This document shows positions 38,538 through 61,200 of a stretch of DNA of 64,000 nt, in pieces; the first letter of the stretch is position 1; every line of letters begins with the position of its first letter. The notes beneath the pieces are model-generated. The model worked only from the letters and a program-made list of their open reading frames with translations, made no database searches and was not told the DNA's origin. The stretch comes from an uncultured bacterium (GTDB taxonomy: Bacteria > Fidelibacterota > Marinisomatia > Marinisomatales > UBA1611): the NCBI GenBank assembly GCA_965660855.1, contig CBFIBM010000003.1, positions 86,382 to 150,381 of the forward strand, in the 5' to 3' direction. The position numbers and the translations under genes are program-made.

Positions 38538-38655
38538 TTTATGAGTGATATATCGATAGAAAATCGTTATTTTATATAACCTTTATTAATATAAGATTTT
38601 AATAGTACTCACATTTTTTAATAATTTAAAGCTTTTAATATAGTTGGAGGATCTT

Positions 38656-42018: not shown

Positions 42019-42101
42019 GCCGCGGTGGTGGAATTGGTAGACACGCCAGATTTAGGATCTGGTGCACTTTGTGCGTGAAGGTTCGAGCCCTTTCCGCGGT
42101 A
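42019..42101 (+). tRNA. tRNA-Leu (anticodon TAG)
   Basis: GCCGCGGTGGTGGAATTGGTAGACACGCCAGATTTAGGATCTGG... with a long variable arm (type II), T-loop GGTTCGAGCC and anticodon loop TTTAGGA. Confidence 0.9.
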
Positions 42102-42102
42102 C

Positions 42103-46266: not shown

Positions 46267-48096
46267 ATGATAGATAATAAATTTTATACTTTAGTAATAA
46301 TGTTTTTATTTAGTCAAGTAGTAATATGCTCGACTGAAGAATTTGATGAAAAGCCAACCACAAGGAATCCTGATTTTGCATTAATAGATTCTTTAGTCGA
46401 TTATAAATATGCACAACCTGAAAGAGCTATTACATTTGCAAGGACGGTCTTGCAAAGAAAGAAATATGCTACTGGAGGTTTTCCAAAGATCGAAAGCGCA
46501 TTCTATAATCATTTAGGTGAAATTTATCTTCGAATGAATCTACCTTCACAAGCTTTATCTTATTTTATTGAAGCAAAAAGGTTGCTCCCTAAGACTAAAA
46601 CTCCATGGCTAGATGTTCAATTTGGAAATGTCTATTACAATCAAGATATGATGATAAAGGCAAAAGAAGCTTATGGGAAAGCTCTTGATATTTTTTCTAA
46701 AACTAAAATTTCTGGAGATAGACTCGATGGAAAAAAGACGGGTGGAAACTCCATTGCAGGAATTGCAACGTGTTATAGCAATCTTGGTAAGATAGAAATA
46801 CAATTAAAAAATTATGAATCTGCATTATCATATTTTGAATTAGCTTTGGAAATTAGAAAAGATTTTTATGATAATTTGGATAGCAATAGGGACATTCAAT
46901 TTAACGTTTTAACGGGTGTACTGTACCAGTATTATTTGCTTGCAGAACTATATCATATTTGGGAAATGGATGATTTAGCTATGGAAAAAATTTCTTTAAT
47001 TGATAGTATAGCTATTCCCATTTATAATAAAAATAATCTGGATCCACTTCCTAGCCAAGATAAAGGGTTAAGGTTGATTTATCGTGTATTAGGTCTATCA
47101 AACGATATGAAAATAATTATTAAAACAAATGAAAAAAAATATAAACAAGCTAAACAAGCATCTATTTTAGCAAATATGTTTTTGAAAGATTGGCCTATTT
47201 ATCTTTCTAGAAGCTATTCAAATAGTGCAAGGATGTATTTTGAGCAAGATAGTTTATATAAATCATTGGAACATATCGATGCAGGGATTCGGGTGTGTCA
47301 ATTAAACGGTTTAGGCTTTGAAGAATTGGAACTCCTCAAATACAAAATGGAATTATTAGAAAAAAGCAATTTAAACAAAAGTGCAATTGATATTGCATCA
47401 AAAATATTAGATAAGAAGATCATTATTGAAAAGATGCAAATGTCTGATATGGTAGAGAGCGTTGAGATTAAATCTGAATTATACCAAAGTAGAAATGAGC
47501 TTTTAAAATCAAAAAGAAGACAAACCCTACTTCAGATTCTAATAGGTGTTTTAATATTAATTACTGGCTTAATTATAATTTCTTATAGAAATAAAAAAAG
47601 ATATTCTGAGCAAATTGCAATTATCAATGAGCAAGAAAATCAGATTACTCAAGTTGAATTGAAAAATAAAGAAGCTGAACTAGTTAATATCTCTACTTTT
47701 GCTCTATCAAAAAATGACCTTTTAATTAATATTATTAAAGAATTAGAATATCACATAACTCTCATAAATGATAAGGATGATCAAAAATCTTTAAAACCAT
47801 TAAAAAAGAAAATTCAGAGCTTTATTGATGATGGTATAGATTGGGAGGATTATAAACTTCAATTTTCTAATGTTTTTCCTAATTTTGTCGACTCATTGAT
47901 AGCAAATAATCCAGATATTACAAATAATGATATCAAGTTATGTTGTTATCTAAAGATGAATATGAATACAAAAGATATAGCGCAGCTTTTTGGCTTAACT
48001 GTCAGAGCCATAGAGAATAAACGATATAGACTTAGGAAAAAGCTTTCATTAGAAAAAGATGTTAGTCTTATGTCCTTTATAAATAGCTTAAAATAG
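46267..48096 (+). CDS. membrane-spanning TPR-repeat regulator with C-terminal LuxR/GerE-type HTH
   Basis: N-terminal hydrophobic segment, about 380 aa of TPR-like helices, TM helix LLQILIGVLILITGLIIISY, a coiled coil, then NNDIKLCCYLKMNMNTKDIAQLFGLTVRAIENKRYRLRKKL (LuxR-type HTH). Confidence 0.7.
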   Translation: MIDNKFYTLVIMFLFSQVVICSTEEFDEKPTTRNPDFALIDSLVDYKYAQPERAITFARTVLQRKKYATGGFPKIESAFYNHLGEIYLRMNLPSQALSYFIEAKRLLPKTKTPWLDVQFGNVYYNQDMMIKAKEAYGKALDIFSKTKISGDRLDGKKTGGNSIAGIATCYSNLGKIEIQLKNYESALSYFELALEIRKDFYDNLDSNRDIQFNVLTGVLYQYYLLAELYHIWEMDDLAMEKISLIDSIAIPIYNKNNLDPLPSQDKGLRLIYRVLGLSNDMKIIIKTNEKKYKQAKQASILANMFLKDWPIYLSRSYSNSARMYFEQDSLYKSLEHIDAGIRVCQLNGLGFEELELLKYKMELLEKSNLNKSAIDIASKILDKKIIIEKMQMSDMVESVEIKSELYQSRNELLKSKRRQTLLQILIGVLILITGLIIISYRNKKRYSEQIAIINEQENQITQVELKNKEAELVNISTFALSKNDLLINIIKELEYHITLINDKDDQKSLKPLKKKIQSFIDDGIDWEDYKLQFSNVFPNFVDSLIANNPDITNNDIKLCCYLKMNMNTKDIAQLFGLTVRAIENKRYRLRKKLSLEKDVSLMSFINSLK

Positions 48097-48209: not shown

Positions 48210-49568
48210 ATGAAAGTAAAATATCTAATTTTATTCGTCCTTTACTTACTCATCAGTTCCTGTGAGGATGTTGAAGTTGCATACCCTGGAAATAATCAAT
48301 CTACCAGAGCTGTTGCTCCAAATGGTACTGCTGACTGGTTAATTGCGCAAGTGAATGGCGTTGGGCAATTACCCGAAAATTCAGCTGCAGGGATTGATAT
48401 AGCAACCTTGAATGCTGAAGATGAAAATCCAGATGATGAGTTTTCTTATTCGATTGCAAGTCAGACTATTGGCAATACTTCAGGTGATTATTTCAGAATT
48501 GAGAAAGAAGAAGATGGAGATTTTAAACTTGTTTTAAATAATAGTAGTATTAACTATGAATCTCTAAGCGGTGTAAAGGTAGTTACGATTAATATTTCAG
48601 TTGAGGATGATAGTCCTGATAAATTAAAAAGTGATTTTTCATTGGAAGTGGAAATAATTAATGTGAATGAGTCCCCTTATTTTATTAACCTAAGCTCAAT
48701 TACCCCTTTCGCTGATGAATATGTTGAATTTTCTTCTGGAAATTTAATTTGGGATGATATAGACGAAGGTGATAATCCAATTTTAAATACACAAGGTCCT
48801 GGCTGGTTAAATATAAGTAATGAAGGTTTGTTTAGTGGGTCACCCTCATCTTCAGATGTGGGTGTTAACTCATTTGTTTTGACCATTTCTGATGACGATA
48901 ATCCACCGATCTCTGTAAGTGAGGAAGTAAATATTGAAGTAAGAGAGAATGTCGCTCCAATTTTTGAAAACGCGCCCTCATCACTATCAATTAAGGTAGG
49001 TTGTTATGATACAAATGAAAGCATTGTAAATCTAAATTGGCGAGATCCAAATAATGATGCTCCATATTTTTCTGGTAATGATTTGGTTTCATTTAGTTTT
49101 AATGAAAATATCTCCTGGTTAAATATTTCTGATGATGGAAATATATTTTGTGTTGATGCTCCTCAAAATACAGATGCGGCTGTTTCTGAAATTGAAATTA
49201 CCATTGCTGACAATAGGCCGAGTAATCCAAAAAGCACAACAAAATCATTTGATGTTACAGTAATAGCAAATGATGCACCAAGTTTCACAAACCTTAATGG
49301 CTTTGCAGATGAAATGGATTCAGGTACAGAATATATCTTTGAATTGGAATATGATGATCCAAATGACGATCTTCTCGCATTTGAATTGAAGTTTGCTATT
49401 GGTAATAATGTATTTGATTCTGATCAATTAGGGTGGGTTAGTATTGATAATTCAGGAGAAATCACTCTAAGTCCAACATCGAGTAATGCTGGAGATTATA
49501 CGATCAGTTTTATTATTTCAGATGAATGCTTTGAAGTTTCAGAAGAAAAATCTTTTACAATTAGATAA
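48210..49568 (+). CDS. lipoprotein with one cadherin-like repeat and several He_PIG/dystroglycan-type Ig-like repeats
   Basis: Lipobox LLISSC. Cadherin-like LPENSAAGIDIATLNAEDENPDDEFSYSI...EVEIINVNESPYF. The Ig-like module WLNISNEGLFSGSPSSSDVGVNSFVLTISD is repeated. Confidence 0.6.
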   Translation: MKVKYLILFVLYLLISSCEDVEVAYPGNNQSTRAVAPNGTADWLIAQVNGVGQLPENSAAGIDIATLNAEDENPDDEFSYSIASQTIGNTSGDYFRIEKEEDGDFKLVLNNSSINYESLSGVKVVTINISVEDDSPDKLKSDFSLEVEIINVNESPYFINLSSITPFADEYVEFSSGNLIWDDIDEGDNPILNTQGPGWLNISNEGLFSGSPSSSDVGVNSFVLTISDDDNPPISVSEEVNIEVRENVAPIFENAPSSLSIKVGCYDTNESIVNLNWRDPNNDAPYFSGNDLVSFSFNENISWLNISDDGNIFCVDAPQNTDAAVSEIEITIADNRPSNPKSTTKSFDVTVIANDAPSFTNLNGFADEMDSGTEYIFELEYDDPNDDLLAFELKFAIGNNVFDSDQLGWVSIDNSGEITLSPTSSNAGDYTISFIISDECFEVSEEKSFTIR

Positions 49569-49588: not shown

Positions 49589-49987
49589 ATGAAGTTGAGA
49601 TCAGATATTAATGCAATGACCGCCCTTGTTTATGGAGGAGCAGCATTCTTACTTGTTATCGTAGGGTTTAGGTCTATTCTAGCAACATTAGGAGATCATG
49701 TTGGTGTGATGACTTACTTATCTATTGCTGCACTTGGTTTAGAATTTGTACTTTTAATTTTATACGCAAAGGCTATTTATAACTTGGGTCCAGATTCAGG
49801 TGAAAGTAAAGTCAGCGCTGGGGCAAGTGTTGCGAACATGGATAGTAAAGAGATATCAGAGTTAACCAAAGCAGTAATAAAAGTTGCTGAAATGGGCGAG
49901 GGTTTAGCAAATCTCTCAAATGGGAAAGTTCGTGATGAAGTGAAAAAAGAGGTTAATGATATTCTTTCGAAAGCAATTAAGAAATAG
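49589..49987 (+). CDS. 132-aa two-TM inner-membrane protein, GldL/PorL-like (tentative)
   Basis: ALVYGGAAFLLVIVGF...GVMTYLSIAALGLEFVLLILYA parallels the remembered GldL N-terminus FAYGMGAAVVIVGALF...GTVMLSIGLLTEALIFALSAF, including the TM2 Glu (E52, codon 49742-49744). The cytoplasmic tail is short and helical. Confidence 0.45.
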   Translation: MKLRSDINAMTALVYGGAAFLLVIVGFRSILATLGDHVGVMTYLSIAALGLEFVLLILYAKAIYNLGPDSGESKVSAGASVANMDSKEISELTKAVIKVAEMGEGLANLSNGKVRDEVKKEVNDILSKAIKK

Positions 49988-49996
49988 GTCTATAAA

Positions 49997-51436
49997 ATGA
50001 AAAAAGTAGAAGTCTATTTTCTAATCAATCTTGGTGCTATACTTAGCCTGTTTGCTATTGAAGGTGAGCTGTCTATTTATATGCAAAGACAAGATGATAT
50101 TTTAAAGAATGTTGCTCAAGATAAGCTTCAAACGCTTGTTGAAATAAGCAATGTTGAATCAAATTATGATGATTCCGATTATTACAGGTTATTTTTCGAT
50201 GTTGAAGGACAATATGAACAAGGTTCAATCGAGTTTAATCCTAGTTTTACTACTCCAATTGTAGAGGTTGATGGCGACTCGATAAAAGTAGATGATTCAT
50301 ATGTATGGGAATTGGATTCTGTTAATATCGAGCCTTATACAGAAGAGGGGGATAAAAATAGATATGTAGCTAAGGTCAAGCTTGCATCCATTGAGGATAA
50401 CTATCTAAATCAACCCTTTGATATAAACCTAGGTGTGAATTTCATTCCCGCTATTGACACTGTTACTTACGCAAAATGGACAAAGGCGTTTGGAGATTAC
50501 ACAGTTACAGACAAATTGTTGAAGATAATCGATGATGAAGTTTCCTCAAAAGGAAGCTTTGAAATGGAGAGGGAATTTGACACCCCGGTAACACTGATTT
50601 ATATGGATGGTCAGCAAGCAGAGTTTTTTGTTTTGTTTGATAAAGAAAAGTATACTGTGTTAAGAGGTTTGGATTGGGAGATTCCGTTCAGTATTGGTGG
50701 GGTGAATTCTGAAGCTGATTTTGATATTGAGATATCAAGTGGCAAAGATTTAGTAAAAGAGTCTCAACCAGGGTTGCCAAGATCATTTATCAAAGGTAAA
50801 GGTACGAGTGATGGAACTGTTGAAATTGTTGGGCTGAGGAAAAGAGATAAAAAATCTAGTATTACTAAGGCTAAGATAGTAGTAGTGGATCCACAGTATA
50901 GTTCTCCAACTGAAGACAAAGAAATTTACATTGGAGAGCAGTATGTTTTTGATAGCAGAGTTAAAGATGTAGACAGAGATAGAATTTCTGTGAAAATTTC
51001 TGGATCTGCGGTAAACTCAAAAACTTTTAACTCTTACGAAGCAAAATTAAAACCTAAAAGTCGAGGAAAAGTTAAATTCCAAACTTTTGTTGATGGGAAA
51101 GCTGTAAAAGGATTATTTCGTGAAGTTTCTGTAAAGAAAATTCCACCGCCTAAGCTTGAGTTTAAGCGTTTAGGAAAAGGATCAAATAATATGATGGTTA
51201 CAGTTACAACATATGGAAATAATAATGGTAAAAAAGCTGTAGTCCCTCTCTCTGGTATTTATGGAAAACTAGACGAAGAGCAAGCTGAAAAACGGGTTGG
51301 AAATCGAAGAGTTGTTAAATACAGCTTTGAAATGGACGAGCCACAATTTGGAACAACCACTGAGATAAGAATAAAAGTTGTGGATAAATATAAAGCAGAA
51401 ACTGTCTCAGACAATGAATTTGAATATTATGATTAA
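49997..51436 (+). CDS. bitopic protein (N-terminal TM plus ~440-aa periplasmic Ig-like domains), GldM/PorM-like (tentative)
   Basis: Start is 9 nt after the GldL-like gene. The TM YFLINLGAILSLFAIEGEL can be compared with GldM MINLMYLVFIAMLALNVS. The late motif FREVSVKKIPPPKLEF resembles the GldM C-terminal F.V..iP.P motif. Confidence 0.4.
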   Translation: MKKVEVYFLINLGAILSLFAIEGELSIYMQRQDDILKNVAQDKLQTLVEISNVESNYDDSDYYRLFFDVEGQYEQGSIEFNPSFTTPIVEVDGDSIKVDDSYVWELDSVNIEPYTEEGDKNRYVAKVKLASIEDNYLNQPFDINLGVNFIPAIDTVTYAKWTKAFGDYTVTDKLLKIIDDEVSSKGSFEMEREFDTPVTLIYMDGQQAEFFVLFDKEKYTVLRGLDWEIPFSIGGVNSEADFDIEISSGKDLVKESQPGLPRSFIKGKGTSDGTVEIVGLRKRDKKSSITKAKIVVVDPQYSSPTEDKEIYIGEQYVFDSRVKDVDRDRISVKISGSAVNSKTFNSYEAKLKPKSRGKVKFQTFVDGKAVKGLFREVSVKKIPPPKLEFKRLGKGSNNMMVTVTTYGNNNGKKAVVPLSGIYGKLDEEQAEKRVGNRRVVKYSFEMDEPQFGTTTEIRIKVVDKYKAETVSDNEFEYYD

Positions 51437-53174
51437 AAAACACCATATTTCTACTCTCTTATTTTTAAGTAGCACTCTATTATTTGGTCAAAAATCAATC
51501 TACTGGGAAGTAGCTGATCCTGTTGTGAACAGCGAGTTCATCGAATCTTATATTAATAGATTGATTGAGGTTGATAAATTTGAGCAAAATACCATTCAAG
51601 CTTCTCATACAATCATTGTCCAAATGGATATTGAAAATGATAAAATTAGTTTAGAAAAACTCAAAGCTAAAAATTATCAAATGGGAGAGTACCAATCTTT
51701 TGATATGGAAGAAATTGAAAAGATGGATCCTGTCCAGATTAATACATTAATGTCGCGAGAGTACAAGTGGAAAGATGTAAGTCGAAGAGATTTGTCTGAG
51801 TTAGAAGCTTTTAGTACTGTAGATAATGTATTTCAAGAGCGTAGTTTTAAAGATGCTAGAGATGCATTTTGGTGGTCGAATTCTCAAATAAGCGTCAGTA
51901 CTGCTCAGAAGGTTTTTATTAGACAGAAAAGTAATAGTCTTGCATTTCGTTTGGAGAAGGGTTTTCTTGACCTTGGACTGTCAAGAGAATTGTCTGAAAA
52001 TTTGATTTTAGGCATTTCAAATGATGTTGTGAGCTCATATCTCATTATACCTGGAGCAACTAATTCTACAGCTATGGGTATTGGGCATCCTTTAGAAGGA
52101 AATTTAGGCTTTGGCTTTAAGTTTGACACTCATACTCTTGGTGGTCAGGTTAACTATATGGATGTCGATGGTCAGGATTATGACTATTCAAAAGTTTTTA
52201 GCAGAAAACATTTGGTGATCCCATCAAGTAGTGGACTATTATATTGGAGCAATACTTTCCAAATTAATAGAAATGTTGATTCCAAGTATGGTAATAAAGT
52301 TAAAGATCAAAAAAAAGAAAAAGCCAAAGCAGAAAAAGCAATCTCGAAATCTAGAGAATGGAATACTGGATCAGACAAATTTAATGGAGTATTTCAGGTA
52401 ATGGAAGAAGAGACTGTTACTTTTATTGTTGATAGAGATAATAAAGCACACAAGTTAGCAGAAAAGGGTAAAGAGTGGACGACAAAATCAGGAAGTGTTG
52501 TTAAAGCAGTTTTAACAAATAGAAACCCCAAAGAGATTACCCTGTTAAGAGCAAAGGATAATTTTAAAATTGTACTAAAATTAAGAGATCTATCCGAAGA
52601 GGATCAATCTTTTGTTGAAAGTTTAAAGTGGGATGGTAAAAAAACAAAAACTCTATCTATTGAGCAACTAAATCCCTCCGATCAACAGCTTATTAGAGCA
52701 GCGACAGGGACTGTGAAGGCAAGAAGCGGTAAAGGTCGTGAGCTAAAAGTCAGTGAACCATTTGCTTCAATGCGGTTGAAAGCAGGTCTTGCATTTACTC
52801 AATTTGTTCACGCTAGAGTTTTTGAAGATAATTTAGTATCGGTAATTGATCGTACGTCTGGCTCTAATTCATTAGGGTTTTATGCAAAAGTTGAGGGAGT
52901 GACAGATAGTAAAAGCTCCAAAGGGTATATCCAAGTAAATGTAGCAGGTAATGGATTTAAGGCATACGGGTTGGGTTTAGAGCATAATGTATGGAAAATG
53001 GTTAATTTAGGAGTGGATTTGACTCTTTACCCTGATAACAGTTTTATCGAATTTAAAAATGATCGAAATAATCCAGAAGATAAATGGAGATGGTATCCAG
53101 GGAGTCGCCCAGATGAAAATGGAAAGGGCGGAGGAACTCTTTTCTTTTCTCCTTATATTACTGTGAACTTCTAA
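51429..53174 (+). CDS. secreted probable outer-membrane beta-barrel protein with internal tandem SHD1-like domains
   Basis: ATG 51429 (ATGA-type overlap with the upstream stop) gives signal peptide MIKKHHISTLLFLSSTLLFGQ. C-terminal beta-signal LFFSPYITVNF. 52353-52625 encodes REWNTGSDKFNGVF... and KEWTTKSGSVVKAVL...IVLKLRDLSEEDQSFVESL. Confidence 0.5.
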   Translation: MIKKHHISTLLFLSSTLLFGQKSIYWEVADPVVNSEFIESYINRLIEVDKFEQNTIQASHTIIVQMDIENDKISLEKLKAKNYQMGEYQSFDMEEIEKMDPVQINTLMSREYKWKDVSRRDLSELEAFSTVDNVFQERSFKDARDAFWWSNSQISVSTAQKVFIRQKSNSLAFRLEKGFLDLGLSRELSENLILGISNDVVSSYLIIPGATNSTAMGIGHPLEGNLGFGFKFDTHTLGGQVNYMDVDGQDYDYSKVFSRKHLVIPSSSGLLYWSNTFQINRNVDSKYGNKVKDQKKEKAKAEKAISKSREWNTGSDKFNGVFQVMEEETVTFIVDRDNKAHKLAEKGKEWTTKSGSVVKAVLTNRNPKEITLLRAKDNFKIVLKLRDLSEEDQSFVESLKWDGKKTKTLSIEQLNPSDQQLIRAATGTVKARSGKGRELKVSEPFASMRLKAGLAFTQFVHARVFEDNLVSVIDRTSGSNSLGFYAKVEGVTDSKSSKGYIQVNVAGNGFKAYGLGLEHNVWKMVNLGVDLTLYPDNSFIEFKNDRNNPEDKWRWYPGSRPDENGKGGGTLFFSPYITVNF

Positions 53175-53187
53175 AAACGGAACTTAT

Positions 53188-55506
53188 ATGACTCTAGTAT
53201 TTAAATATTTTACAATTTTAGCTTTTTCATCAACGCTTATTTTTAGTCAAAATGAGTTAAAATTAAAAAAAGACAAAGCGCAGGTTACCGAGGATGAAAG
53301 CATTAAAATAGATGTCTTAAAAAATGACGGAATTAAAGATAAAAGTAACCTAATAATTAAGATTGAAAAACAAGCTCAAAAAGGAGTTGCCGTACTATCT
53401 GGGAAAATGATCGAGTATACCCCCAATAGTAATGAAAGTGGATCAGATAGTTTTACATACTCAGTTGATATTGGTACTGGAGCTGGTACAGCTGAAGTCT
53501 CTGTCAAAATTAAATCAGTAAATGATGAACCCACCGGACTTAGTCTTTCTAGTAAGACAATTAAAGAAAATAAACCTGAAGGGACATTAATTGGTAAGCT
53601 AATTGTTGATGATCCAGATATGAATGATACTTTCAACTTTGGTCTATCTAGAGATAGTAAAGCAGATTTTCGAATTGATGGTGAAAAGTTACTTTCAAAA
53701 AGATCATTTGATTATGAGGAGCAAAGTAAATATAATTTATCAATACAAGTATCAGACGCAGCAGGTGAATCTAATGTTTTTGATATAGCAGTGAATATTG
53801 AAAATGAAAATGAAGCTCCAAAACTCATTGGGGATAAAGACTTAAACATTAATCACCCGGAAGATGCGGGAAAAATTGTGGCAAGAATTCAAGTAGAAGA
53901 CCCTGATTCTGACCAATCGGGTCTTAAATACAAGCTTACTAAGAGTCTAGATAAGGAACATTTTAAAATCACTCGTAGTGGCGATATCTCATTTTTAAAA
54001 GAGCCGGATTTTGAAAACCCAAAAGATAAAAATAAAAATAATACTTATAATGTTTCATACAAAGTAACAGATAGTAAAGACCCTTCCCTTTCCATTGAAG
54101 GAGAAGTTACTATTAATCTTCTTGATGCTGAGGAAACAGAAGTTAAGGCTTTGGACAAAAGGAAATTTATTGCTTGGTCTGTAGATCATCAACCATATCA
54201 CATTTTGATGGAAGAAGCCGTAGAGGATTATTTGAAATTAAAATATTCTGATGATTCTATTGATGAGGCAGTTGATGATGGATATGGTGCTAGTATTCAG
54301 GAACTAAAGCCAACAGATCAAATTATTATTGTTCAGCAAAAAGGTAATAATAGTGAAATTTATGAAATTTGGTATGGTAACGGATTAGACTATACCATAA
54401 TCGATAGAGAAAAAGTGGATTGGATTTTTAGTCAGGATATACAATCTGTTCTTGTCACAAAAGATCAATATCTTAATAGTGATTCAGAGACAGTATTTCA
54501 TAAAAGTGAAAGTGATAGATTGATGGCTAGCTATGGAAATGAATTTTCTGTCTGGCACTCCAATAATTTCAAAATGTCACTTGCTTCCTTTTCTATGAGA
54601 TCGAATTTATTGCAATACGCATCTAATATGCGTGTAGGAAATAAATTAATAGGAATTCCAGGTGAGCTTGGTGCAGGGGCAGAATTTGGTATTGCGACAC
54701 AACGATCAGAATTTGGTTTTCGATTGCCAATTTCATTTGATTTTGCAACATCTAATTCTGATGGTATTGATTTACCAGAAGCTGATAATTTAGGGTTGTA
54801 TGCACGTGGAAATATTGAAAATTTATTTTCAACTAATACTGATTTTCATGGATTGATTGGGTTTTCTTTTTATTCACCAAGTGTTGGTAATGTTTTAAGT
54901 TCCCCTAAAGATTTAGAAAGTGACAGTACAAAGTGGGGGGCTATAAACGACTCCACTGAAAATATTAATATTTTAGATAGCTATGCTTTATTTGGTGCGA
55001 CTGTTCAAGTTCCAGTAAATGCACCTTTTATTGGTCGCTTAACCGCAACACCGGGTATTCATTACATAAAGATAGCCCACCGTTTAAAAGATAAGCGCTA
55101 TTCAGCAGATGATGACTTGTATGAAAGGCTTTATTATAATCAAATGTTTGAGCAAAATGATAGTACTTTGACTTTCAATTCAGAAAAATTAAATGATGAA
55201 AATGAATCTTTTACATCTCTATCATCTTTTTACTTACGATTTGATCTACTAGGGAAAATAGGGGAAAAGCCTAACGTAATTGAGAGATTATCATTCTTGG
55301 ATTTCATTAAAATTTCCAATGTCCCTTTTTATGAGGTTTCATTACAGTTTATTCCCGGTTTTAATACAATCAGCACACTGAATGTGAATTTCTCAGACCA
55401 ATTTGGCATGTCTTTGACACGTTTGTCTTCCGATGATGCATTAAAAGGAAATTGGATGCCAGAATCAAAACTTTGGTTTGGATTTAATTATCGTGCTAAT
55501 TTTTAA
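53188..55506 (+). CDS. secreted protein: bacterial cadherin-like repeats fused to a probable C-terminal outer-membrane beta-barrel
   Basis: Signal peptide. IDVLKNDG...YTPNSNESGSDSFTYSV. Two cadherin repeats end in VNDEP and ENEAP. The C-terminal ~440 aa show alternating strands and end in LWFGFNYRANF. Confidence 0.5.
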   Translation: MTLVFKYFTILAFSSTLIFSQNELKLKKDKAQVTEDESIKIDVLKNDGIKDKSNLIIKIEKQAQKGVAVLSGKMIEYTPNSNESGSDSFTYSVDIGTGAGTAEVSVKIKSVNDEPTGLSLSSKTIKENKPEGTLIGKLIVDDPDMNDTFNFGLSRDSKADFRIDGEKLLSKRSFDYEEQSKYNLSIQVSDAAGESNVFDIAVNIENENEAPKLIGDKDLNINHPEDAGKIVARIQVEDPDSDQSGLKYKLTKSLDKEHFKITRSGDISFLKEPDFENPKDKNKNNTYNVSYKVTDSKDPSLSIEGEVTINLLDAEETEVKALDKRKFIAWSVDHQPYHILMEEAVEDYLKLKYSDDSIDEAVDDGYGASIQELKPTDQIIIVQQKGNNSEIYEIWYGNGLDYTIIDREKVDWIFSQDIQSVLVTKDQYLNSDSETVFHKSESDRLMASYGNEFSVWHSNNFKMSLASFSMRSNLLQYASNMRVGNKLIGIPGELGAGAEFGIATQRSEFGFRLPISFDFATSNSDGIDLPEADNLGLYARGNIENLFSTNTDFHGLIGFSFYSPSVGNVLSSPKDLESDSTKWGAINDSTENINILDSYALFGATVQVPVNAPFIGRLTATPGIHYIKIAHRLKDKRYSADDDLYERLYYNQMFEQNDSTLTFNSEKLNDENESFTSLSSFYLRFDLLGKIGEKPNVIERLSFLDFIKISNVPFYEVSLQFIPGFNTISTLNVNFSDQFGMSLTRLSSDDALKGNWMPESKLWFGFNYRANF

Positions 55507-55577: not shown

Positions 55578-58250
55578 ATGCTTTTTAGAACTTGTTACAT
55601 AATACTTTTTCTTTTTTCTTTACTTAATGCACAAACATCTATTCTTGACTCTAAAGAGCTTGGTATTACAAAACCTAAGAAGCTCATAGAAGCAATTCTT
55701 GGTGATAATATTGAGGCTCCAGGTGGATCTGCAGTTATCCTAGATGCTTCAAAATCAAGGCCTAACAATGGATCCTTGACCTTCGAGTGGTCTTTTCCTG
55801 AGAATCTTATTTTTGAAGATGATTATGAATATGATAAATCCCAAACAGTAATAACTTATTCATCTGAAGAATTAAAAGAGGTTCCTTTTCAAAATAAAAC
55901 TAGTATTAAAACACTTGTTACTAGAAATCAATATATAGAATTAGACCTTCCAAATTATACAACAGCTAAAACTTTTTCAATTATTCTCAAAGTTCAAAAC
56001 CATGTAGGTATGAAAGACTTTGATACATTATTTGTTAATCTAATACCTCCTATTAAAACTAGCTTACAAGTGGTTGATGTTGGAGATGAATATTTATCCA
56101 TTCAGGATAGCTCTGAGTCCGTTGGAGTCGAGTTAACAGAAACTATAATAGATGAATCGTTACTATCTATACAACCAATTAATAAAAATTTATTTAAACC
56201 AAGAGAAATTGATTTGATTAACTCTCTTATTTTTAATGAGATTAAAAACAAAGGATTTGATAATGTTTTAAATCCAAATAGGTACATATCAGAAGAGATA
56301 AAATTAAATAGACTTTATGAAAGATTTAAAATTGTTAAGGATACTGTAATAACTGAAAATAATCCTAGTGCACCAGCTGGACCATCTCTTATCCAAAAAA
56401 TCCAAAGTTTTTTTATTAAAGATAAAAATAATGATTCCCTAAAAACCACAACAACAGAAGATACATTAAATATTGTAATAAAAGGAAAAGATGACTCTAA
56501 TCTTGAAGTCGTATTAGCTGATGAAGAGGATCCTGATCTAAAAATAGATTCATTAAGTAATGACTCAACTGTAGTAACAGACTCAATCAATACGGAAAAT
56601 TTATTTAGCCTAGGGTTTTTTAAGTCCTTTTTTCAAAAATTTTCTAAAAAACAGGAAAATAATGTTATCTTAAAAGATAGTACCTCTTTAATTGTCGATG
56701 ATTCTTCCGTTGTTAAAAATATTACAAATAATGATATTCCTGTAACGGATATATCAGAAGAACTAAATAAAACCATTGAATATGATTCATCCCTTGTTTC
56801 AGCTGTTACCTATGATACCACTATTGTTGTAGACACACTGAAATATAATGTGGTCGTGGACACAACACTTTTCTATAATTTTTCCTGTGCCTCAGACTCT
56901 TGTGCAGGAGAAAATGCAATTTTAGAAGGAGCTGGTAAAGTTTTAACTTGGGGTCTAAACGATGATTCTGAGTTGGAGTTCCGTTATTTCTCAGTAGCAA
57001 ATCTTTTTAACGAAGATGTTCATTTTGATTGGGTAATCAGCAATGTCCAATTAAACCCTAGCTCAAAAGAAAAAATAATTTATCCAACCACTCTAGCAAC
57101 AAGTATCACTGGTAGTCTTTTTGTCGGAGAAGCAAACTCAAATAATATATTAGAAATAACAAAAGACCAGAATGCTCAAATAGTTGTAGAAGGGAATATT
57201 TTGAATGAAGAGCTTTCAAAACCATCAGGAATGGAAATAGGTTCAAACCAGGAAATATATTTTTCTGATAAATATAATAATAGAATTCTAATTAATTCTG
57301 GAGAAAGCTTCAGAACTCTTGTCAACAGTAAGAGTAAGTATAATAATCAAGATAACTCTTCTCCAATGGACCCTTCTTCAGTACGAATAGGACCAAATGG
57401 AGCAGTTTATGTATTATTCGATAAAGATGGATCGGTTTATAAGATTGCTAAAAGAGAAATTAGCACTATTCTAAATCCTAATTTACTAGATGGGATTGAT
57501 GATTTTGCGATTAATTCAAAAGGTGAAATTTTCATTTTAAGTACTGAAATGAAAAAAATCTATAAAATCATCAATAAAAATGAAATTATAACTATAGCTG
57601 GTTTAGACCGTCCTGATAAGAATAGAAAAATATATATGAAGAGGAAAGGTCCTAATTCTTTGAGCTTTTCAGGAACTGCATTAGAACCTGCTCTTATGAA
57701 TGATGTTCCTTCAAAAAAAATTCCATTTGGAAACCCTGTTAGTATTGATATTGATTTAAATGATAATCTTTACATTGCAGATGATGAATATGGAACCATT
57801 AGGAGAATTGATAAAGAGGGTACAATAAGCACATTTTTTGGGCCTAGCGATGAATTAAAAGGTGTTTCTCAAATTAGACTAACAAATGAAGAAAATTTTC
57901 AGATATATATTTCAAAACCATTTGCCCATGAATTAAAAAAGATTAGTTTGAGTGAAATTTCTCCATGGGTTAAAAAATCAACCATTGATCACCCTAGGTA
58001 TATAATTCAAGAAAAGGGTGTTTATGGACTTGAGGATCAATTAAATGAATCTCTCTCGTTCACATTAGATGAGATCTTACCAAAAGTAAGAAAAACGTTT
58101 TTGGAGCGAATTAGTAATCAAAATAAAAAGGTTACTAAATTTATGGGAAAGAATCCACTTTTCTGTGGTCTTTTATTACTACTTGTGAATCAAGGTGTCG
58201 CAGCTAGCCTTGAAGATCCACCTAAATTACCTCCAGATTTTCCATTTTAA
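55578..58250 (+). CDS. secreted PKD-like plus NHL-repeat beta-propeller protein with C-terminal hydrophobic anchor
   Basis: Signal peptide. APGGSAVILDASKSRPNNGSLTFEWSF (PKD-like). A low-complexity S/T/D/N linker. NHL-like blades (PSGMEIGSNQEIYFSDKYNNRIL, PVSIDIDLNDNLYIADDEYGTIRRI). The C-terminus reads PLFCGLLLLLVNQGVAASLEDPPKLPPDFPF. Confidence 0.5.
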   Translation: MLFRTCYIILFLFSLLNAQTSILDSKELGITKPKKLIEAILGDNIEAPGGSAVILDASKSRPNNGSLTFEWSFPENLIFEDDYEYDKSQTVITYSSEELKEVPFQNKTSIKTLVTRNQYIELDLPNYTTAKTFSIILKVQNHVGMKDFDTLFVNLIPPIKTSLQVVDVGDEYLSIQDSSESVGVELTETIIDESLLSIQPINKNLFKPREIDLINSLIFNEIKNKGFDNVLNPNRYISEEIKLNRLYERFKIVKDTVITENNPSAPAGPSLIQKIQSFFIKDKNNDSLKTTTTEDTLNIVIKGKDDSNLEVVLADEEDPDLKIDSLSNDSTVVTDSINTENLFSLGFFKSFFQKFSKKQENNVILKDSTSLIVDDSSVVKNITNNDIPVTDISEELNKTIEYDSSLVSAVTYDTTIVVDTLKYNVVVDTTLFYNFSCASDSCAGENAILEGAGKVLTWGLNDDSELEFRYFSVANLFNEDVHFDWVISNVQLNPSSKEKIIYPTTLATSITGSLFVGEANSNNILEITKDQNAQIVVEGNILNEELSKPSGMEIGSNQEIYFSDKYNNRILINSGESFRTLVNSKSKYNNQDNSSPMDPSSVRIGPNGAVYVLFDKDGSVYKIAKREISTILNPNLLDGIDDFAINSKGEIFILSTEMKKIYKIINKNEIITIAGLDRPDKNRKIYMKRKGPNSLSFSGTALEPALMNDVPSKKIPFGNPVSIDIDLNDNLYIADDEYGTIRRIDKEGTISTFFGPSDELKGVSQIRLTNEENFQIYISKPFAHELKKISLSEISPWVKKSTIDHPRYIIQEKGVYGLEDQLNESLSFTLDEILPKVRKTFLERISNQNKKVTKFMGKNPLFCGLLLLLVNQGVAASLEDPPKLPPDFPF

Positions 58251-58298
58251 TTAAATTTTTAATTCATTTATTATGAAACACTTCTTAAGGAGTTCATT

Positions 58299-61200
58299 AT
58301 GAATAAGCTCTTATTAATATTTGTTTTATTTACCTATGTCCTTAACGGGCAAAAATATAAAACTAATAATCAAAGTTTATTTAATTCAAAAAATAAAATA
58401 AATACAGCCGAAACTTTAAGTTCTACAGTTCCAAGGTTGCTATCCTATCAAGGCCTCTTAACAAAAACAGATGGCAAAGCAATCAAGGATGGTAGTATAG
58501 AGGTAACTTTTAGGTTATATACATCTTTGGAAGAAGGGGTTCATTTTTGGGAAGAGGTGCAAAATGTTGTTATCGAAGATGGTATCCTCACTGCTGTTTT
58601 AGGAAAGATTATACCAATAGATATCGTTCCTGATGCATCTTTTTTAGAAGTAGAAATAAATGGTACAGTTCTTTCACCTCGCCAAGAAATGACTTCTTCA
58701 TTTTATTCTATTATCTCAGATACTTCAAAATACTCCCAAGGTGGAAATTATTTGGATCTTGATGGTTTACCAGATTTAAATATTTTTGCAAGGAAAGATA
58801 CTCTTAGCAATTACACCCTAATAGATAGCCTTAATCCAGTTGCTTTGAGTGGGGATTATCTTGATTTAGAAAATGTTCCTGATTTATCAGAAGTTCTTCA
58901 AAGTGACACACTTGATTTATACGTGATGATAGATAGCCTTAATTCGTATGTTCTTCAATCAAGTTTAAGTATAGTTGCTTTTTCAAATGACTATTCAGAT
59001 TTAAATAATATTCCTGACCTTAATCAATATGCGACAAAGGATACTTTGACTAATTTCATTTCAGAAGACACCTTATCCTTCTATGCTTTGAACACAGAAT
59101 TAGGTTCTATTGCATTGCAAGATACTAATAATGTTAATATTACAGGTGGATCCATTTCTGGTGTTTCTGATATTTCGGTTGCAGATGGAGGTACAGGCGC
59201 TTCTGATATAGCTACTGCGAGAGAAAATTTAGGTCTTGAAATTGGTACAGATGTTCAAGGATACGATGCAGATCTAGCAGATCTAGCAGACGGTTCCTTA
59301 TCAGCATCAAAAGTACAATTTTTAGAAAATATTAGTTCCGATGTTCAAGAGCAAATTAATAATTTAGGTTTAAACAGTTTAATGGACCTTGGTGTGGTCG
59401 CTGACTCCTCTGAGTTAAATTTTGTTGATGGAGTTACATCAAATATTCAAACTCAATTAGATAATAAACAAGAAATAAACTCGAACCTTACCTCGATAGT
59501 CAATCTAGATCAAACAGATGGAAATTTCATTGTGTCTGATGGAAATAACTGGACGGTTGAAAACGGAGCAGATGCGAGGGCATCCTTGAATTTAGGTTCA
59601 ATGTCGACTCAACAATCAGATAATGTCACAATCTCGGGTGGAAGAGTGACGGGCATATTAGACATTGCGATTGCAGACGGGGGAACTGGCGCATCAGATA
59701 TCGCTACGGCAAGAGAAAATTTAGGACTCCAAATTGGTGCTGATATTCAAGGCTATGATGCTGACCTTGCTGATATATCAAGTTTATCGCAAGCTGAGGG
59801 TAACATCATTGTTTCCAATGGGAGTAATTGGACCGCCGAATCTGGTTCTGATGCTAGAGAATCTCTTGGATTATCTATAGGGAGTGATATCCAAGGCTAT
59901 GATGCAGATTTAGAAGATTTAGCAGATGGAACCCTATCTTCTAGTAAAATAGAGAATAATGAATACTTTATTACATCCTCAGGAAATGCCAATGAGGTTT
60001 GGACTTCTGATGGAAGCGGAGCAGGAACATGGGCCACTTCTACCAATACCCTCACAGGAGCAGGGTCTACAATAGATACAGAGGATTTATCAGCATCTCA
60101 AGCGGTGGTTACGGATAGTGATGGCAAAATAGCGGTATCAGATGTAACGGTCACTGAATTAAATTATGTGGATGGAGTAACATCAAGCATCCAGGCTCAA
60201 TTAGATGCAAAACAATTAGCTGATTCTGATTTAGATGATTTAGCTGTATTACCTCAAAGTAATGGTAATATTATCGTCTCGGATGGAAGTAATTGGACTG
60301 CCGAATCTGGTTCTGATGCTAGGGAATCTCTTGGATTATCTATAGGGAGCGATGTTCAGGGTTATGATGCTGATTTAACAGATTTAGCAGATGGAACCCT
60401 GTCTGCTAGTAAAGTAGAGAACAATGAGTATTTTATTACATCTCCTGGTAACGCTGGTGAAGTATGGATTTCAGATGGTTCTGGTGCAGGTGAATGGGGT
60501 CTATCAGCAGGCATAACCGGAGCCGCATCTACCGTGGATACGGAAGATTTGACAGGGAAGAGAACGCTTATATCAAATATTGATGGTAAAATTGCAATAT
60601 CTGACATTACATCCCAAGAACTAGGTTATTTAGATGATGTATCAAGTAATGTACAAACTCAATTAGATGGTAAACAGCCTTTGAATTCTAACTTAACAGA
60701 CTTAGTTGGATTAACTCAAAGTGATGGGAATTTTATTATTTCTGATGGAGTAAATTGGACTGTAGAAAAGGGAGCAGATGCCCGGGCATCTTTGGGGTTA
60801 GGCTCTTTATCTACACAAGAATCTAGTGCCGTAGCTATTACTGGGGGTTCTATAGCCGGTATTGCAGATATTACCATTTCTGATGGTGGAACTGGAGCTT
60901 CAGATATAGCAACTGCAAGGGAAAATTTAGGGCTTGAAATTGGAACAGATATTCAAGGTTACGATGCAGACCTAGCAGACCTAGCAGATGGAACTCTATC
61001 CGCAAGTAAAGTTGAAAATAATGAATACTTTATTACTTCTTCAGGCTCAGCGAATGAGGTGTGGACATCCGATGGAAGTGGTGCTGGAACATGGGCCACT
61101 TCTACAAACGCCCTCACTGGAGCGGGATCTACGATAGATACAGAAAATTTATCAGCATCTGTAGTTGTAGTTACAGATAGTAATGGTAAAATAGCAGTAT

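What the first reader, a model, noticed from the sequence alone, without database searches (positions are those of the whole stretch)
49997..51436. GldM/PorM-like bitopic partner translationally close to the GldL-like gene
The start is 9 nt after the GldL-like stop. It has a single N-terminal TM (FLINLGAILSLFAIEGEL, sharing the INL core of GldM MINLMYLV). About 440 aa of beta-rich periplasmic sequence follow, and a late motif LFREVSVKKIPPPKLEF resembles the GldM C-terminal F.V..iP.P motif. Caveat: I could not place the conserved GldM arginine before the TM helix. Lysines occupy that region instead, and the overall similarity is weak.
Basis: inference. Interest (0 to 1): 0.55.

Follow-up and report, generated by a model that had tools for sequence, protein, structure and literature searches.

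The report
Unannotated GldLM-like envelope motor cassette
The gene is real and encodes a membrane-anchored, four-domain periplasmic rod that always sits next to a small two-helix membrane protein with a buried glutamate; it is built like the GldL/GldM motor of type IX secretion but is not a recognisable member of that family and has different outer-membrane partners.

Summary
ORF 49997-51436 (479 aa, "D") is a real, conserved Marinimicrobia (SAR406) gene. It starts 9 nt after a 132-aa two-TM gene ("C") and overlaps the next gene ("E") by 8 nt. C-D-E-F is a four-gene cassette, intact wherever the contig extends that far, across 61 genome loci plus 10 more divergent contigs (one of these has a TolC-type gene in place of E-F).

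D has one N-terminal TM helix, which is its best-conserved part, followed by four periplasmic domains (AlphaFold pLDDT 86). C has an invariant glutamate in TM2.

No curated GldM/GldL model, PDB sequence search or Foldseek top-50 hit links D or C to GldM/GldL. GldM's invariant R9-Q10-N14-Y17 signature is absent; D has Glu5, Tyr7, Glu22 and Glu24 instead. D1 is not all-helical. E and F are unrelated to GldN and GldK.

Profile-profile tests give weak, cognate-specific signals (C-GldL P about 1e-3, D-GldM P about 3e-3 to 7e-3). The TM-only tests are at chance, the C-tail match is generic coiled coil, and the domain-by-domain matrix is not diagonal.

Verdict: a GldLM-like architecture in a new, unannotated family. 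It probably works as an ion-driven inner-membrane motor with a periplasmic shaft. Homology is possible but unproven, and what it drives is unknown.

The parts
49589..49987 (+). Gene C: 132-aa two-TM protein (TM1 ~res 10-33, TM2 ~res 40-64, N-in/C-in) with a coiled-coil cytoplasmic tail. Invariant Y15, G17-A18-A19, G26, [RK]28, E52 (codon 49742-49744), F53, Y59, A60.
   Evidence: generic coiled-coil tail
49997..51436 (+). Gene D (the finding): 479-aa bitopic protein, N-in, with a four-domain periplasmic rod.
50000..50131 (+). D residues 2-45: one continuous helix. The TM core is residues 5-25 (50009-50071) with conserved E5, Y7, F8, I10, E22, E24. The periplasmic extension carries Y28 and Q32. 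This is the best-conserved part of D (pairwise identity 0.78 against 0.35-0.43 for the domains).
50138..50551 (+). D domain 1 (res 48-185): beta sandwich followed by two helices (155-185). Unlike the five-helix D1 of GldM.
50558..50887 (+). D domain 2 (res 188-297), all beta. Its best domain-level profile match is to GldM D3 (P=6e-4), not GldM D2.
50894..51136 (+). D domain 3 (res 300-380), all beta. Aligns weakly with GldM D3 (P=0.011).
51140..51151 (+). Proline linker I382-P383-P384-P385 between D3 and D4. Aligns with GldM I405-P-G-P408 at the crystallographic D3/D4 boundary.
51152..51424 (+). D domain 4 (res 386-476), eight-stranded beta domain at the distal (outer-membrane) end.
51429..53174 (+). 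Gene E: 581-aa secreted protein (signal peptide MIKKHHISTLLFLSSTLLFGQ) whose start overlaps the D stop by 8 nt. The C-terminal third is modelled as long antiparallel strands ending ...ITVNF (probable outer-membrane barrel, weak evidence). It has a clade-specific ~150-aa insert. It is part of the conserved core.
53188..55506 (+). Gene F: 772-aa secreted protein. Big_9/cadherin domains (clade-specific N-terminal extension) are followed by a ~420-aa conserved core ending ...NYRANF. It is the fourth core gene.
48210..49568 (+). Gene B: lipoprotein (LLISSC) with He_PIG/cadherin-like Ig domains. An accessory gene found only in the window's clade. It is not GldK-like (no FGE-sulfatase domain).
46267..48096 (+). 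Gene A: TPR + TM + LuxR-type HTH regulator. A clade-specific accessory gene upstream of the cassette.
55578..63443 (+). Genes G (NHL repeats, C-terminal TM) and H (1714 aa). Clade-specific downstream accessory genes.

Best explanation
D is the periplasm-spanning, membrane-anchored subunit of an unannotated two-protein inner-membrane complex (C + D) that is built like the GldL/GldM (PorL/PorM) motor. Proposed mechanism: several copies of the two-TM protein C surround the TM helices of a D dimer. Ion flow past the invariant membrane-buried Glu52 of C and the conserved acidic Glu5 of D drives rotation or a conformational change of D. The long helix plus four-domain rod carries this across the periplasm to the two secreted, probably outer-membrane proteins E and F encoded just downstream. 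Shown here: topology, fold, conservation pattern, gene coupling and cassette conservation. Inferred: complex formation, stoichiometry, ion coupling, movement and contact with E/F. It is not a member of the curated GldM family and is not attached to a GldK/GldN hub. If it shares ancestry with GldLM, it is a very divergent branch with a different rotor charge (Glu instead of Arg), a different D1 and different outer-membrane partners.
For: (1) Gene linkage. The C stop and D start are 9 nt apart, and the D stop overlaps the E start by 8 nt. The C-D gap is 3-40 nt in 17 diverse loci. C-D-E(-F) is conserved wherever the contig extends that far in all 61 genome loci, down to 26% identity and including a KSB1 MAG. 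Of the 10 further divergent contigs, all that reach upstream of D carry C next to D; five carry two ~400-440-aa genes after D, three are cut after one downstream gene, one has a TolC-type gene instead, and one is cut upstream of D. Accessory neighbours change between clades. (2) Topology. C has two TM helices and a helical cytoplasmic tail. D has a single N-terminal TM with about 4 cytoplasmic residues. (3) The TM segments are the most conserved parts of both proteins (D TM 0.78 against 0.35-0.43; C TM1/TM2 0.69/0.65 against 0.31-0.41). They carry invariant polar residues: C Y15, GAA, R/K28 and E52 in 20/20; D E5, Y7, E22 and E24. This is what a functional intramembrane interface would look like. 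GldL E49 is strictly conserved and essential, and GldL and GldM interact through their TM helices (PMC8986121). (4) The AlphaFold model of D (pLDDT 85.8) has helix 2-45 followed by four domains. GldM also has four periplasmic domains, about 180 A long (PMC5790014). (5) Weak cognate-specific profile similarity. In the 4x4 matrix, C-GldL (P=0.0016) and D-GldM (P=0.0071) are the best scores in their rows and columns apart from signal-peptide matches. With compacted targets the values are P=6e-4 and 0.0028, with 0/80 shuffles reaching either score. The C hairpin alignment puts Y15 on Y13, GAA on GAA, F-R28 on F-K27 and E52 on E49. The D alignment puts 'VVVDP' (295-299) and 'IPPP' (382-385) on the crystallographic D2/D3 and D3/D4 boundaries of GldM. 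(6) E and F have signal peptides and OMP-like C-termini. The E model shows long antiparallel strands in its C-terminal third.
Against: No Pfam, NCBIfam or PADLOC hit for C or D in the window, and no Pfam hit for 25 D-family members or for 10 further divergent relatives (9 of them new). HMMER profiles of both superfamilies find no GldL/GldM/PorL/PorM chain in PDB. The Foldseek top 50 for D are generic tandem Ig chains, without GldM/PorM. GldM's invariant R9, Q10, N14 and Y17 (66/66) have no counterpart in D. D1 is not all-helical. TM-only profile tests are at chance or marginal. The C-tail match to GldL is explained by generic coiled-coil character, and reversed-profile controls reach 21-24. 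The domain-by-domain matrix is not diagonal: D2 matches GldM D3 best, and D4-D4 gives P=0.18. P values near 1e-3 would not survive a database-wide search. E and F show no similarity to GldN/GldK. The E model is poor (pLDDT 60) and has no significant fold match. No complex prediction could be run.
Confidence: 0.52

Rival explanations
1. C-D-E-F is a static or non-motor envelope-spanning scaffold, for example a tether or assembly platform for surface proteins. In this reading it has no evolutionary or mechanistic relation to GldLM, and the resemblance is convergent: a small helical-hairpin membrane protein next to a signal-anchored chain of Ig-like domains.
For: All curated-model and database-scale searches are negative. 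TM-only similarity is at chance. The tail similarity is generic coiled coil. The domain matrix is not cognate. The Foldseek hits are ordinary Ig/FN3-type chains.
Against: The invariant membrane-buried Glu in C TM2, and the acidic and aromatic residues in the D TM, are hard to explain for a passive anchor. The TM helices are the best-conserved parts of both proteins. C-GldL and D-GldM are the best cells in the control matrix. Linkage is tight and universal.
Confidence: 0.25
2. The cassette is the Marinimicrobia/KSB1 equivalent of the type IX secretion energy chain. C-D replace PorL/PorM, E-F replace the PorK/PorN hub, and the cassette powers export of the many Por-CTD proteins of these bacteria.
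For: The organism has T9SS cargo. Two Por_Secre_tail proteins lie immediately upstream (38644-41994 and 42176-45556). SAR406 bins carry up to 24 such proteins (PMC5596340). CTD genes also lie near the cassette in L143. No canonical gldL/gldM was found in the window or in the 61 genome loci (0.96 Mb of almost entirely Marinimicrobia DNA).
Against: That 0.96 Mb all flanks the same cassette and is not a genome census. E and F have no similarity to GldN/GldK, and there is no lipoprotein FGE-fold gene. CTD genes are so numerous in these phyla that adjacency means little. One MAG seems to hold two paralogous cassettes (L010 and L149). Clade-specific neighbours (TonB_C, PD40/M23/OmpA, TolC-like OEP) point to varied outputs.
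Confidence: 0.15
3. It is a Ton/Tol-type energiser. D plays the role of TonB/TolA, a periplasm-spanning transducer, and C the role of ExbB/TolQ. The system energises outer-membrane proteins for uptake or envelope maintenance.
For: A TonB_C-domain gene lies directly upstream of C in 13 loci. A PD40 + Peptidase_M23 + OmpA gene, reminiscent of TolB/Pal, neighbours the cassette in 5 loci. A TolC-family OEP follows D in L142. The conserved acidic residue at the cytoplasmic end of the D TM recalls Asp in ExbD/TolR/MotB (the comparison is from my own knowledge).
Against: There is no MotA_ExbB, ExbD/TolR or TonB hit in C or D. C has two TM helices rather than three. There is no third ExbD/TolR-like subunit. 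D lacks a TonB_C or TolA_C domain.
Confidence: 0.08

Closest known systems
GldL/GldM (PorL/PorM) motor of the type IX secretion / gliding apparatus (PDB 6YS8, 7SAT-7SAZ, 6EY4; Pfam GldM_N/GldM_C; NCBIfam GldL/GldM models)
   Same: The gene order is small two-TM protein then bitopic protein, tightly coupled. The small protein is N-in/C-in with a strictly conserved Glu in TM2 and a helical cytoplasmic tail. The large protein has a very short cytoplasmic N-terminus, one TM and four periplasmic domains of similar total length (479 against 513 aa), with proline-containing linkers at matching positions. Secreted envelope proteins are encoded downstream. Profile-profile similarity is weak but cognate-specific.
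   Different: No curated-model hit. GldM's R9-Q10-N14-Y17 is replaced by E5-Y7...E22-E24. D1 is beta plus two helices rather than five helices. C is shorter (132-182 aa in Marinimicrobia against ~212). There is no GldK/GldN; E and F are unrelated, probable beta-barrel proteins. It is found in Marinimicrobia, KSB1 and unassigned lineages rather than Bacteroidota. Foldseek does not rank GldM/PorM among the top 50.
ExbB-ExbD-TonB and TolQ-TolR-TolA proton-driven energisers
   Same: An inner-membrane complex with a conserved acidic TM residue on the bitopic subunit, and a periplasm-spanning element that reaches outer-membrane partners. TonB_C, PD40/OmpA and TolC-like genes neighbour the cassette in some clades.
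   Different: Two components instead of three. C has two rather than three TM helices. There is no sequence match to any Ton/Tol family. D is a chain of beta domains rather than a Pro-rich or helical spacer with a small C-terminal domain.
MotA/MotB-type 5:2 stator units (including PomAB and ZorAB)
   Same: The general logic of an ion-conducting TM assembly with an acidic residue near the cytoplasmic end of the single-TM subunit.
   Different: No MotA/MotB/OmpA-like domains, no peptidoglycan-binding domain in D, no PADLOC Zorya hit, and two rather than four TM helices in the multi-copy subunit.

Membership tests
GldM/PorM | Match to the curated family models (Pfam GldM domain models, NCBIfam GldM) | tested here: not met
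   No hit at E<=1 for the window protein. No GldM Pfam hit for 25 family members (E<=1) or for 10 further divergent relatives, 9 of them new (E<=0.01).
GldM/PorM | N-in bitopic topology with a single N-terminal TM helix | tested here: met
   One hydrophobic segment at res 5-25 with K2/K3 on the N side. AlphaFold helix 2-45. There is no signal-peptidase-like -3/-1 motif, and the TM is the most conserved region.
GldM/PorM | Invariant TM signature R9-Q10-x2-I13-N14-x2-Y17 (66/66 in canonical sequences) | tested here: not met
   D has E5, Y7, F8, I10, E22 and E24, and no conserved Arg. TM-only profile comparison is at chance.
GldM/PorM | Four periplasmic domains: D1 all-helical, D2-D4 beta (PMC5790014) | tested here: inconclusive
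   There are four domains and D2-D4 are all beta, but D1 is a beta sandwich plus two helices. The linkers align with the GldM D2/D3 and D3/D4 boundaries. The domain matrix is not diagonal. GldM/PorM is not in the Foldseek top 50; the strand swapping in the crystal dimers may contribute to that.
GldM/PorM | Detectable sequence homology to GldM | tested here: inconclusive
   hhalign P=0.23 with a thin profile, 0.015-0.03 with a rich GldM profile, and 0.003-0.007 with the superfamily D profile; 0/80-0/100 shuffles reach the score. Unrelated pairs reach P 0.02-0.05. HMMER finds nothing at database scale.
GldM/PorM | Encoded in a gldK-gldL-gldM-gldN operon | tested here: not met
   Upstream gene B is a cadherin/He_PIG lipoprotein present only in one clade. 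E and F show no similarity to GldN/GldK profiles built from 52 and 32 sequences.
GldM/PorM | Homodimer within a GldL5:GldM2 complex | not testable with these tools
GldL/PorL (partner gene C) | Match to curated GldL models | tested here: not met
   No Pfam/NCBIfam hit. The precomputed Pfam column is empty for the 120 listed homologues.
GldL/PorL (partner gene C) | Two TM helices, N-in/C-in, with a cytoplasmic helical tail | tested here: met
   Hydropathy, family alignment, and coiled-coil-like tail.
GldL/PorL (partner gene C) | Strictly conserved, essential Glu in TM2 (E49; PMC8986121) | tested here: met
   E52 is invariant in 20/20 sequences and in the 21-sequence superfamily alignment. Every hhalign run that aligned TM2 puts it on GldL E49. 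Its function was not tested.
GldL/PorL (partner gene C) | Detectable sequence homology to GldL | tested here: inconclusive
   Full-length P=6e-4 to 1.6e-3. Hairpin alone P=0.05 (12/150 shuffles), tail alone P=0.003. The tail is a generic coiled coil and reversed controls score 21-24.
ExbB/ExbD/TolQ/TolR/MotA/MotB | Match to the MotA_ExbB and ExbD/TolR or MotB family models; three or more TM helices in the multi-copy subunit | tested here: not met
   No hits. C has two TM helices.

The most novel reading that the evidence does not exclude
C-D is a previously unrecognised branch of the GldLM class of rotary ion-driven motors in which the rotor arginine is replaced by a glutamate, so that two carboxylates face each other; this could mean a different ion or gating chemistry. 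It is wired to a new pair of outer-membrane proteins (E/F) instead of the PorK/PorN hub. In SAR406 and KSB1 it may be the missing energy source for type IX-like secretion, or for movement of surface adhesins, in some of the most abundant bacteria of the dark ocean.
Probability: 0.2. Interest if true: 0.8.

Novelty: new variant of a known kind. Interest (0 to 1): 0.55.

Why it matters
Only a handful of families of ion-driven envelope motors are known: MotAB, ExbBD, TolQR, AglRQS, GldLM and ZorAB. A conserved, unannotated two-gene pair with GldLM-like architecture, a different charge arrangement in the membrane and different outer-membrane partners would widen that class. It would give a comparison for asking which features of GldLM are essential. 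It would also assign a testable role to a four-gene cassette that is universal in the sampled Marinimicrobia loci, in a globally abundant and almost uncultured marine phylum that encodes many T9SS-type cargo proteins. If the resemblance is only convergent, the cassette is still a conserved envelope-spanning system of unknown function that current annotation misses entirely.

Tried and rejected
1. Pfam, NCBIfam and PADLOC scans of C, D, E, F and neighbours gave nothing for C, D or E.
2. PDB sequence searches with single proteins and with family and superfamily profiles found no GldL/GldM. The C profile hits only generic coiled coils.
3. Foldseek of the D model returned only generic Ig chains. 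Foldseek of the E model returned nothing significant.
4. The 'INL core' and other TM-level resemblance were rejected as chance. By eye, the ordered set Y/GAA/G/K-R/E in C and GldL looked striking, but the hairpin-only test is marginal (P=0.05, 12/150 shuffles).
5. The C-tail match to GldL 103-130 (P=2e-4) was rejected as specific evidence after the coiled-coil control.
6. An HMM built from four PDB GldM sequences ranked D-family ORFs as its top 12 of 3478. This did not hold with the richer 66-sequence HMM.
7. The domain-by-domain matrix was expected to be diagonal and was not.
8. E/F against GldN/GldK, and E against F for paralogy, showed no relation.
The admissible shallower alignment gave a poor model. 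Co-folding C with D was not possible with the tools.
10. Literature searches for T9SS core genes in Marinimicrobia found only the report of abundant CTD proteins.
11. Promoter and terminator scans were at chance level.
12. tRNA/Rfam scans found nothing relevant to the cassette.
Full report
OBSERVATION. The ORF at 49997-51436 (+) is present exactly as described and encodes 479 aa. The upstream 132-aa ORF (49589-49987, here C) ends with TAG at 49985-49987, and the ATG of the finding (here D) follows after 9 nt. The next gene (E) most plausibly starts at ATG 51429 (MIKKHH..., a signal peptide), overlapping the D stop by 8 nt. F starts 13 nt after E. D has one hydrophobic segment at residues ~5-25, and C has two. 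The gene is real. 373 protein clusters match D at E<=1e-3, and the 120 listed are 81-97% identical. One of them is named by NCBI as Candidatus Neomarinimicrobiota. An exhaustive search of 1.84 billion representatives finds only 100 relatives, with full-length ones down to ~23% identity, so the family is narrow. The window is low-GC (about 27-41%) chromosomal DNA with housekeeping genes: SecA, SecDF, ATP synthase and AspRS. Two T9SS-type cargo genes with Por_Secre_tail domains lie just upstream.

DIRECT TESTS OF THE GldM READING. Pfam and NCBIfam give no GldM or GldL hit at E<=1 for D or C. None of 25 aligned family members hits a GldM Pfam model. The same is true of 10 further divergent relatives, 9 of them new. 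PADLOC is empty. Single sequences, the family profile and a broadened superfamily profile find no GldM/PorM chain in PDB. AlphaFold2 with a 25-sequence alignment gives a confident model (pLDDT 85.8). It has one helix at 2-45, domain 1 (48-185, beta plus two helices), and all-beta domains 2 (188-297), 3 (300-380) and 4 (386-476). Foldseek against PDB returns generic tandem Ig-like chains, and GldM/PorM are not among the top 50. GldM D2 and D3 are strand-swapped in the crystal dimers (PMC5790014), which may lower their score against a monomer model, so I treat this as a moderately negative result.

THE CASSETTE. Pattern-based searching recovered 61 genome loci. Nearly all are Marinimicrobia, one is KSB1 and two are labelled Lentisphaeria. 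In every locus long enough, C, D and E are adjacent and co-oriented. F follows where BLAST can detect it, and an F-sized ORF follows elsewhere. Ten more divergent contigs were reached through distant representatives. All of those that extend upstream of D carry a C-like gene (145-288 aa) immediately before the D-like gene. Five carry two ~400-440-aa genes after D, and three are cut after a single downstream gene. In one (L142) a TolC-family OEP follows D instead, and one (L146) begins within D. Everything else varies by clade: the TPR-LuxR regulator, cadherin lipoprotein, NHL protein and 1714-aa protein in the window's clade; a ParA-like four-gene set in 12 loci; a TonB_C-domain gene in 13; a PD40/M23/OmpA gene in 5. 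C-D gaps are 3-40 nt. One MAG (JAYPLH01) appears to carry two paralogous cassettes, L010 and L149.

CONSERVATION PATTERN. In both proteins the membrane segments are the best-conserved regions. D TM core pairwise identity is 0.78, against 0.35-0.43 for its periplasmic domains. C TM1 and TM2 are 0.69 and 0.65, against 0.31-0.41 elsewhere. C has invariant Y15, G17-A18-A19, G26, R/K28, E52, F53, Y59 and A60. D has E5 (D in one sequence), Y7, F8, I10, E22, E24 and Q32. A cleaved signal peptide or a passive anchor would not be expected to be the most constrained part of a 479-aa protein. I read this as a specific intramembrane interface that includes ionisable residues. This is an inference.

IS IT HOMOLOGOUS TO GldLM? 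I recovered genuine GldL and GldM sequences from PDB entries (6YS8, 7SAT-7SAZ, 7CMG) and 80 canonical gldKLMN loci from metagenomes. From these I built non-redundant profiles of 57 GldL, 66 GldM, 52 GldN and 32 GldK sequences. In canonical GldM, R9, Q10, N14 and Y17 are invariant (66/66). D has none of them in register.

Thin profiles gave nothing (P about 0.2). Rich GldL/GldM profiles gave D-GldM P=0.015-0.03 and C-GldL P=2-3e-4. Adding the divergent cassette members gave C-GldL P=0.0016 and D-GldM P=0.0071, with off-diagonal cells at 0.11-0.61 apart from signal-peptide matches and E-GldM at 0.046. With compacted targets the values were P=6e-4 and 0.0028, and 0/80 column or block shuffles reached either score. 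The C alignment then spans the whole hairpin: Y15/Y13, GAA/GAA, F-R28/F-K27 and E52/E49. The D alignment is colinear over about 170 columns. It places D 'VVVDP' (295-299) on GldM 'VVVPRP' (316-321) and D 'IPPP' (382-385) on GldM 'IPGP' (405-408). These are the published D2/D3 (320/321) and D3/D4 (405/406) boundaries.

CONTROLS THAT WEAKEN THIS.
N11 is Asn in only 16 of 26 members.
(b) The strongest early C-GldL signal lay in the cytoplasmic tail. Searched against all PDB sequences, the C profile hits designed coiled coils, haemagglutinin HA2 and chemoreceptors rather than GldL. The tail similarity is therefore generic. Reversed-profile controls also reach 21-24.
(c) Unrelated family pairs reach P=0.02-0.05 in the same matrix.
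(d) A GldM HMM from four PDB sequences ranked D-family ORFs as its top 12 of 3478, but the richer HMM did not.
(e) A domain-by-domain matrix is not diagonal. D2 matches GldM D3 best (P=6e-4), D3-D3 gives P=0.011, D2-D2 gives 0.36 and D4-D4 gives 0.18. The beta domains may share a GldM-D3-like domain type rather than one-to-one orthology.
(f) P values near 1e-3 would not be significant in an unbiased database search.
My estimate is that true common ancestry with GldLM is about as likely as not.

PARTNERS. E (581 aa here, about 420-455 aa in most clades) and F (772 aa here with an N-terminal Big_9/cadherin extension, about 400-470 aa elsewhere) have signal peptides and, in most clades, end in OMP-like aromatic C-termini. 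They show no similarity to GldN, GldK or each other and none to PDB sequences. The only admissible alignment for E was shallow and the model is poor (pLDDT 60). Its C-terminal third forms long antiparallel strands. The only fold hints are non-significant matches to outer-membrane barrels, plus SH3/Tudor-like folds for the clade-specific insert. Outer-membrane location is therefore inferred, not shown.

MECHANISM. The best-supported reading has three parts. C and D form an inner-membrane complex through their TM helices. An ion pathway involves C Glu52 and D Glu5 at the cytoplasmic side, with D Glu22/Glu24 and C Arg/Lys28 near the periplasmic face. The resulting movement of D is carried by its helix and four-domain rod to E/F at the outer membrane. 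This is how GldLM works: GldL E49 is essential, the TM helices interact, five GldL wrap two GldM, and the motor feeds an outer-membrane hub (PMC8986121 and PMC12635249). The charge arrangement differs, however. Placing an acidic residue on the bitopic subunit recalls ExbD/TolR/MotB (from my own knowledge). What the system drives is unknown. The varied neighbours (TonB_C, PD40/M23/OmpA, TolC-like OEP, cadherin/NHL surface proteins, T9SS cargo) suggest an output at the outer membrane or cell surface.

VERDICT. D and C belong to an unannotated family that occurs as a four-gene cassette in all sampled Marinimicrobia loci and is also found in KSB1 and unassigned lineages. I rate it a new variant of a known kind (a GldLM-like envelope motor) with moderate confidence. 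The decisive tests are multimer structure prediction or cryo-EM and a whole-genome census of canonical T9SS core genes.

Noticed in passing
window 38644-41994 (+) and 42176-45556 (-), with tRNA-Leu at 42019-42102 between them: Two convergent ~1120-aa proteins with T9SS C-terminal sorting domains (Por_Secre_tail/TIGR04183 plus FlgD_ig). One also has a right-handed beta-helix domain. They show that the organism has type IX-style cargo right next to the cassette.
   Followed up: partly
window 51429-53174, residues ~290-440 of E: A clade-specific ~150-aa insertion, absent from the ~420-455-aa E proteins of other clades. It is modelled with fair confidence (pLDDT ~80) as small beta domains plus helices, with weak SH3/Tudor/Hfq-like fold hints.
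   Followed up: partly
window 53188-55506, residues ~28-320 of F: F carries an N-terminal Big_9/cadherin extension not present in the 400-470-aa F proteins of other clades. The upstream lipoprotein B (48210-49568) also has cadherin/He_PIG domains, so this clade has added adhesin-like modules to the cassette.
   Followed up: partly
window 55578-58250: An NHL-repeat protein with a signal peptide, a C-terminal TM helix and a short tail ending ...DPPKLPPDFPF. This looks like a possible C-terminal sorting or anchoring signal of unknown type.
   Followed up: no
window 58299-63443: A 1714-aa secreted protein with no convincing domain match (only weak hits without a significant stretch). It is conserved downstream of the cassette in the window's clade.
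   Followed up: no
L010 (JAYPLH010000048.1) and L149 (JAYPLH010000063.1): The same MAG assembly carries two divergent copies of the C-D-E-F cassette: one 82% identical to the window's D, and one only a distant relative (~29% over the aligned part). If this is not a binning artefact, the cassette has paralogous versions with different neighbours within one genome.
   Followed up: partly
L043 8370-9260 and 12 other loci; L148-L151 and L056: Clade-specific neighbours with an envelope-energising flavour. A TonB_C-domain protein lies directly upstream of C in 13 loci. A PD40 + Peptidase_M23 + OmpA protein, with a WD40 protein nearby in three of the loci, lies next to the cassette in 5 loci.
   Followed up: partly
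L142 7214-8011 and L143 4469-5335: The most divergent C-like proteins have an extra ~85-aa N-terminal cytoplasmic domain. Their TM2 sequence ('FEALLLV', 'IEACMLL', then F.P-acidic-acidic) looks closer to GldL 'TEALIFALSAFEPVEDE' than the Marinimicrobia version does. They may be useful intermediates for homology detection.
   Followed up: partly
window 49589-51436: C and D are in the same reading frame, separated only by TAG plus three codons (VYK). The gap length varies in other loci (3-40 nt, not always a multiple of 3), so conserved read-through fusion is unlikely.
   Followed up: partly
window 8409-9710: A short (433-aa) Omp85/BamA-like protein that matches only the C-terminal barrel part of the BamA model, far below the curated cut-off.
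   Followed up: no
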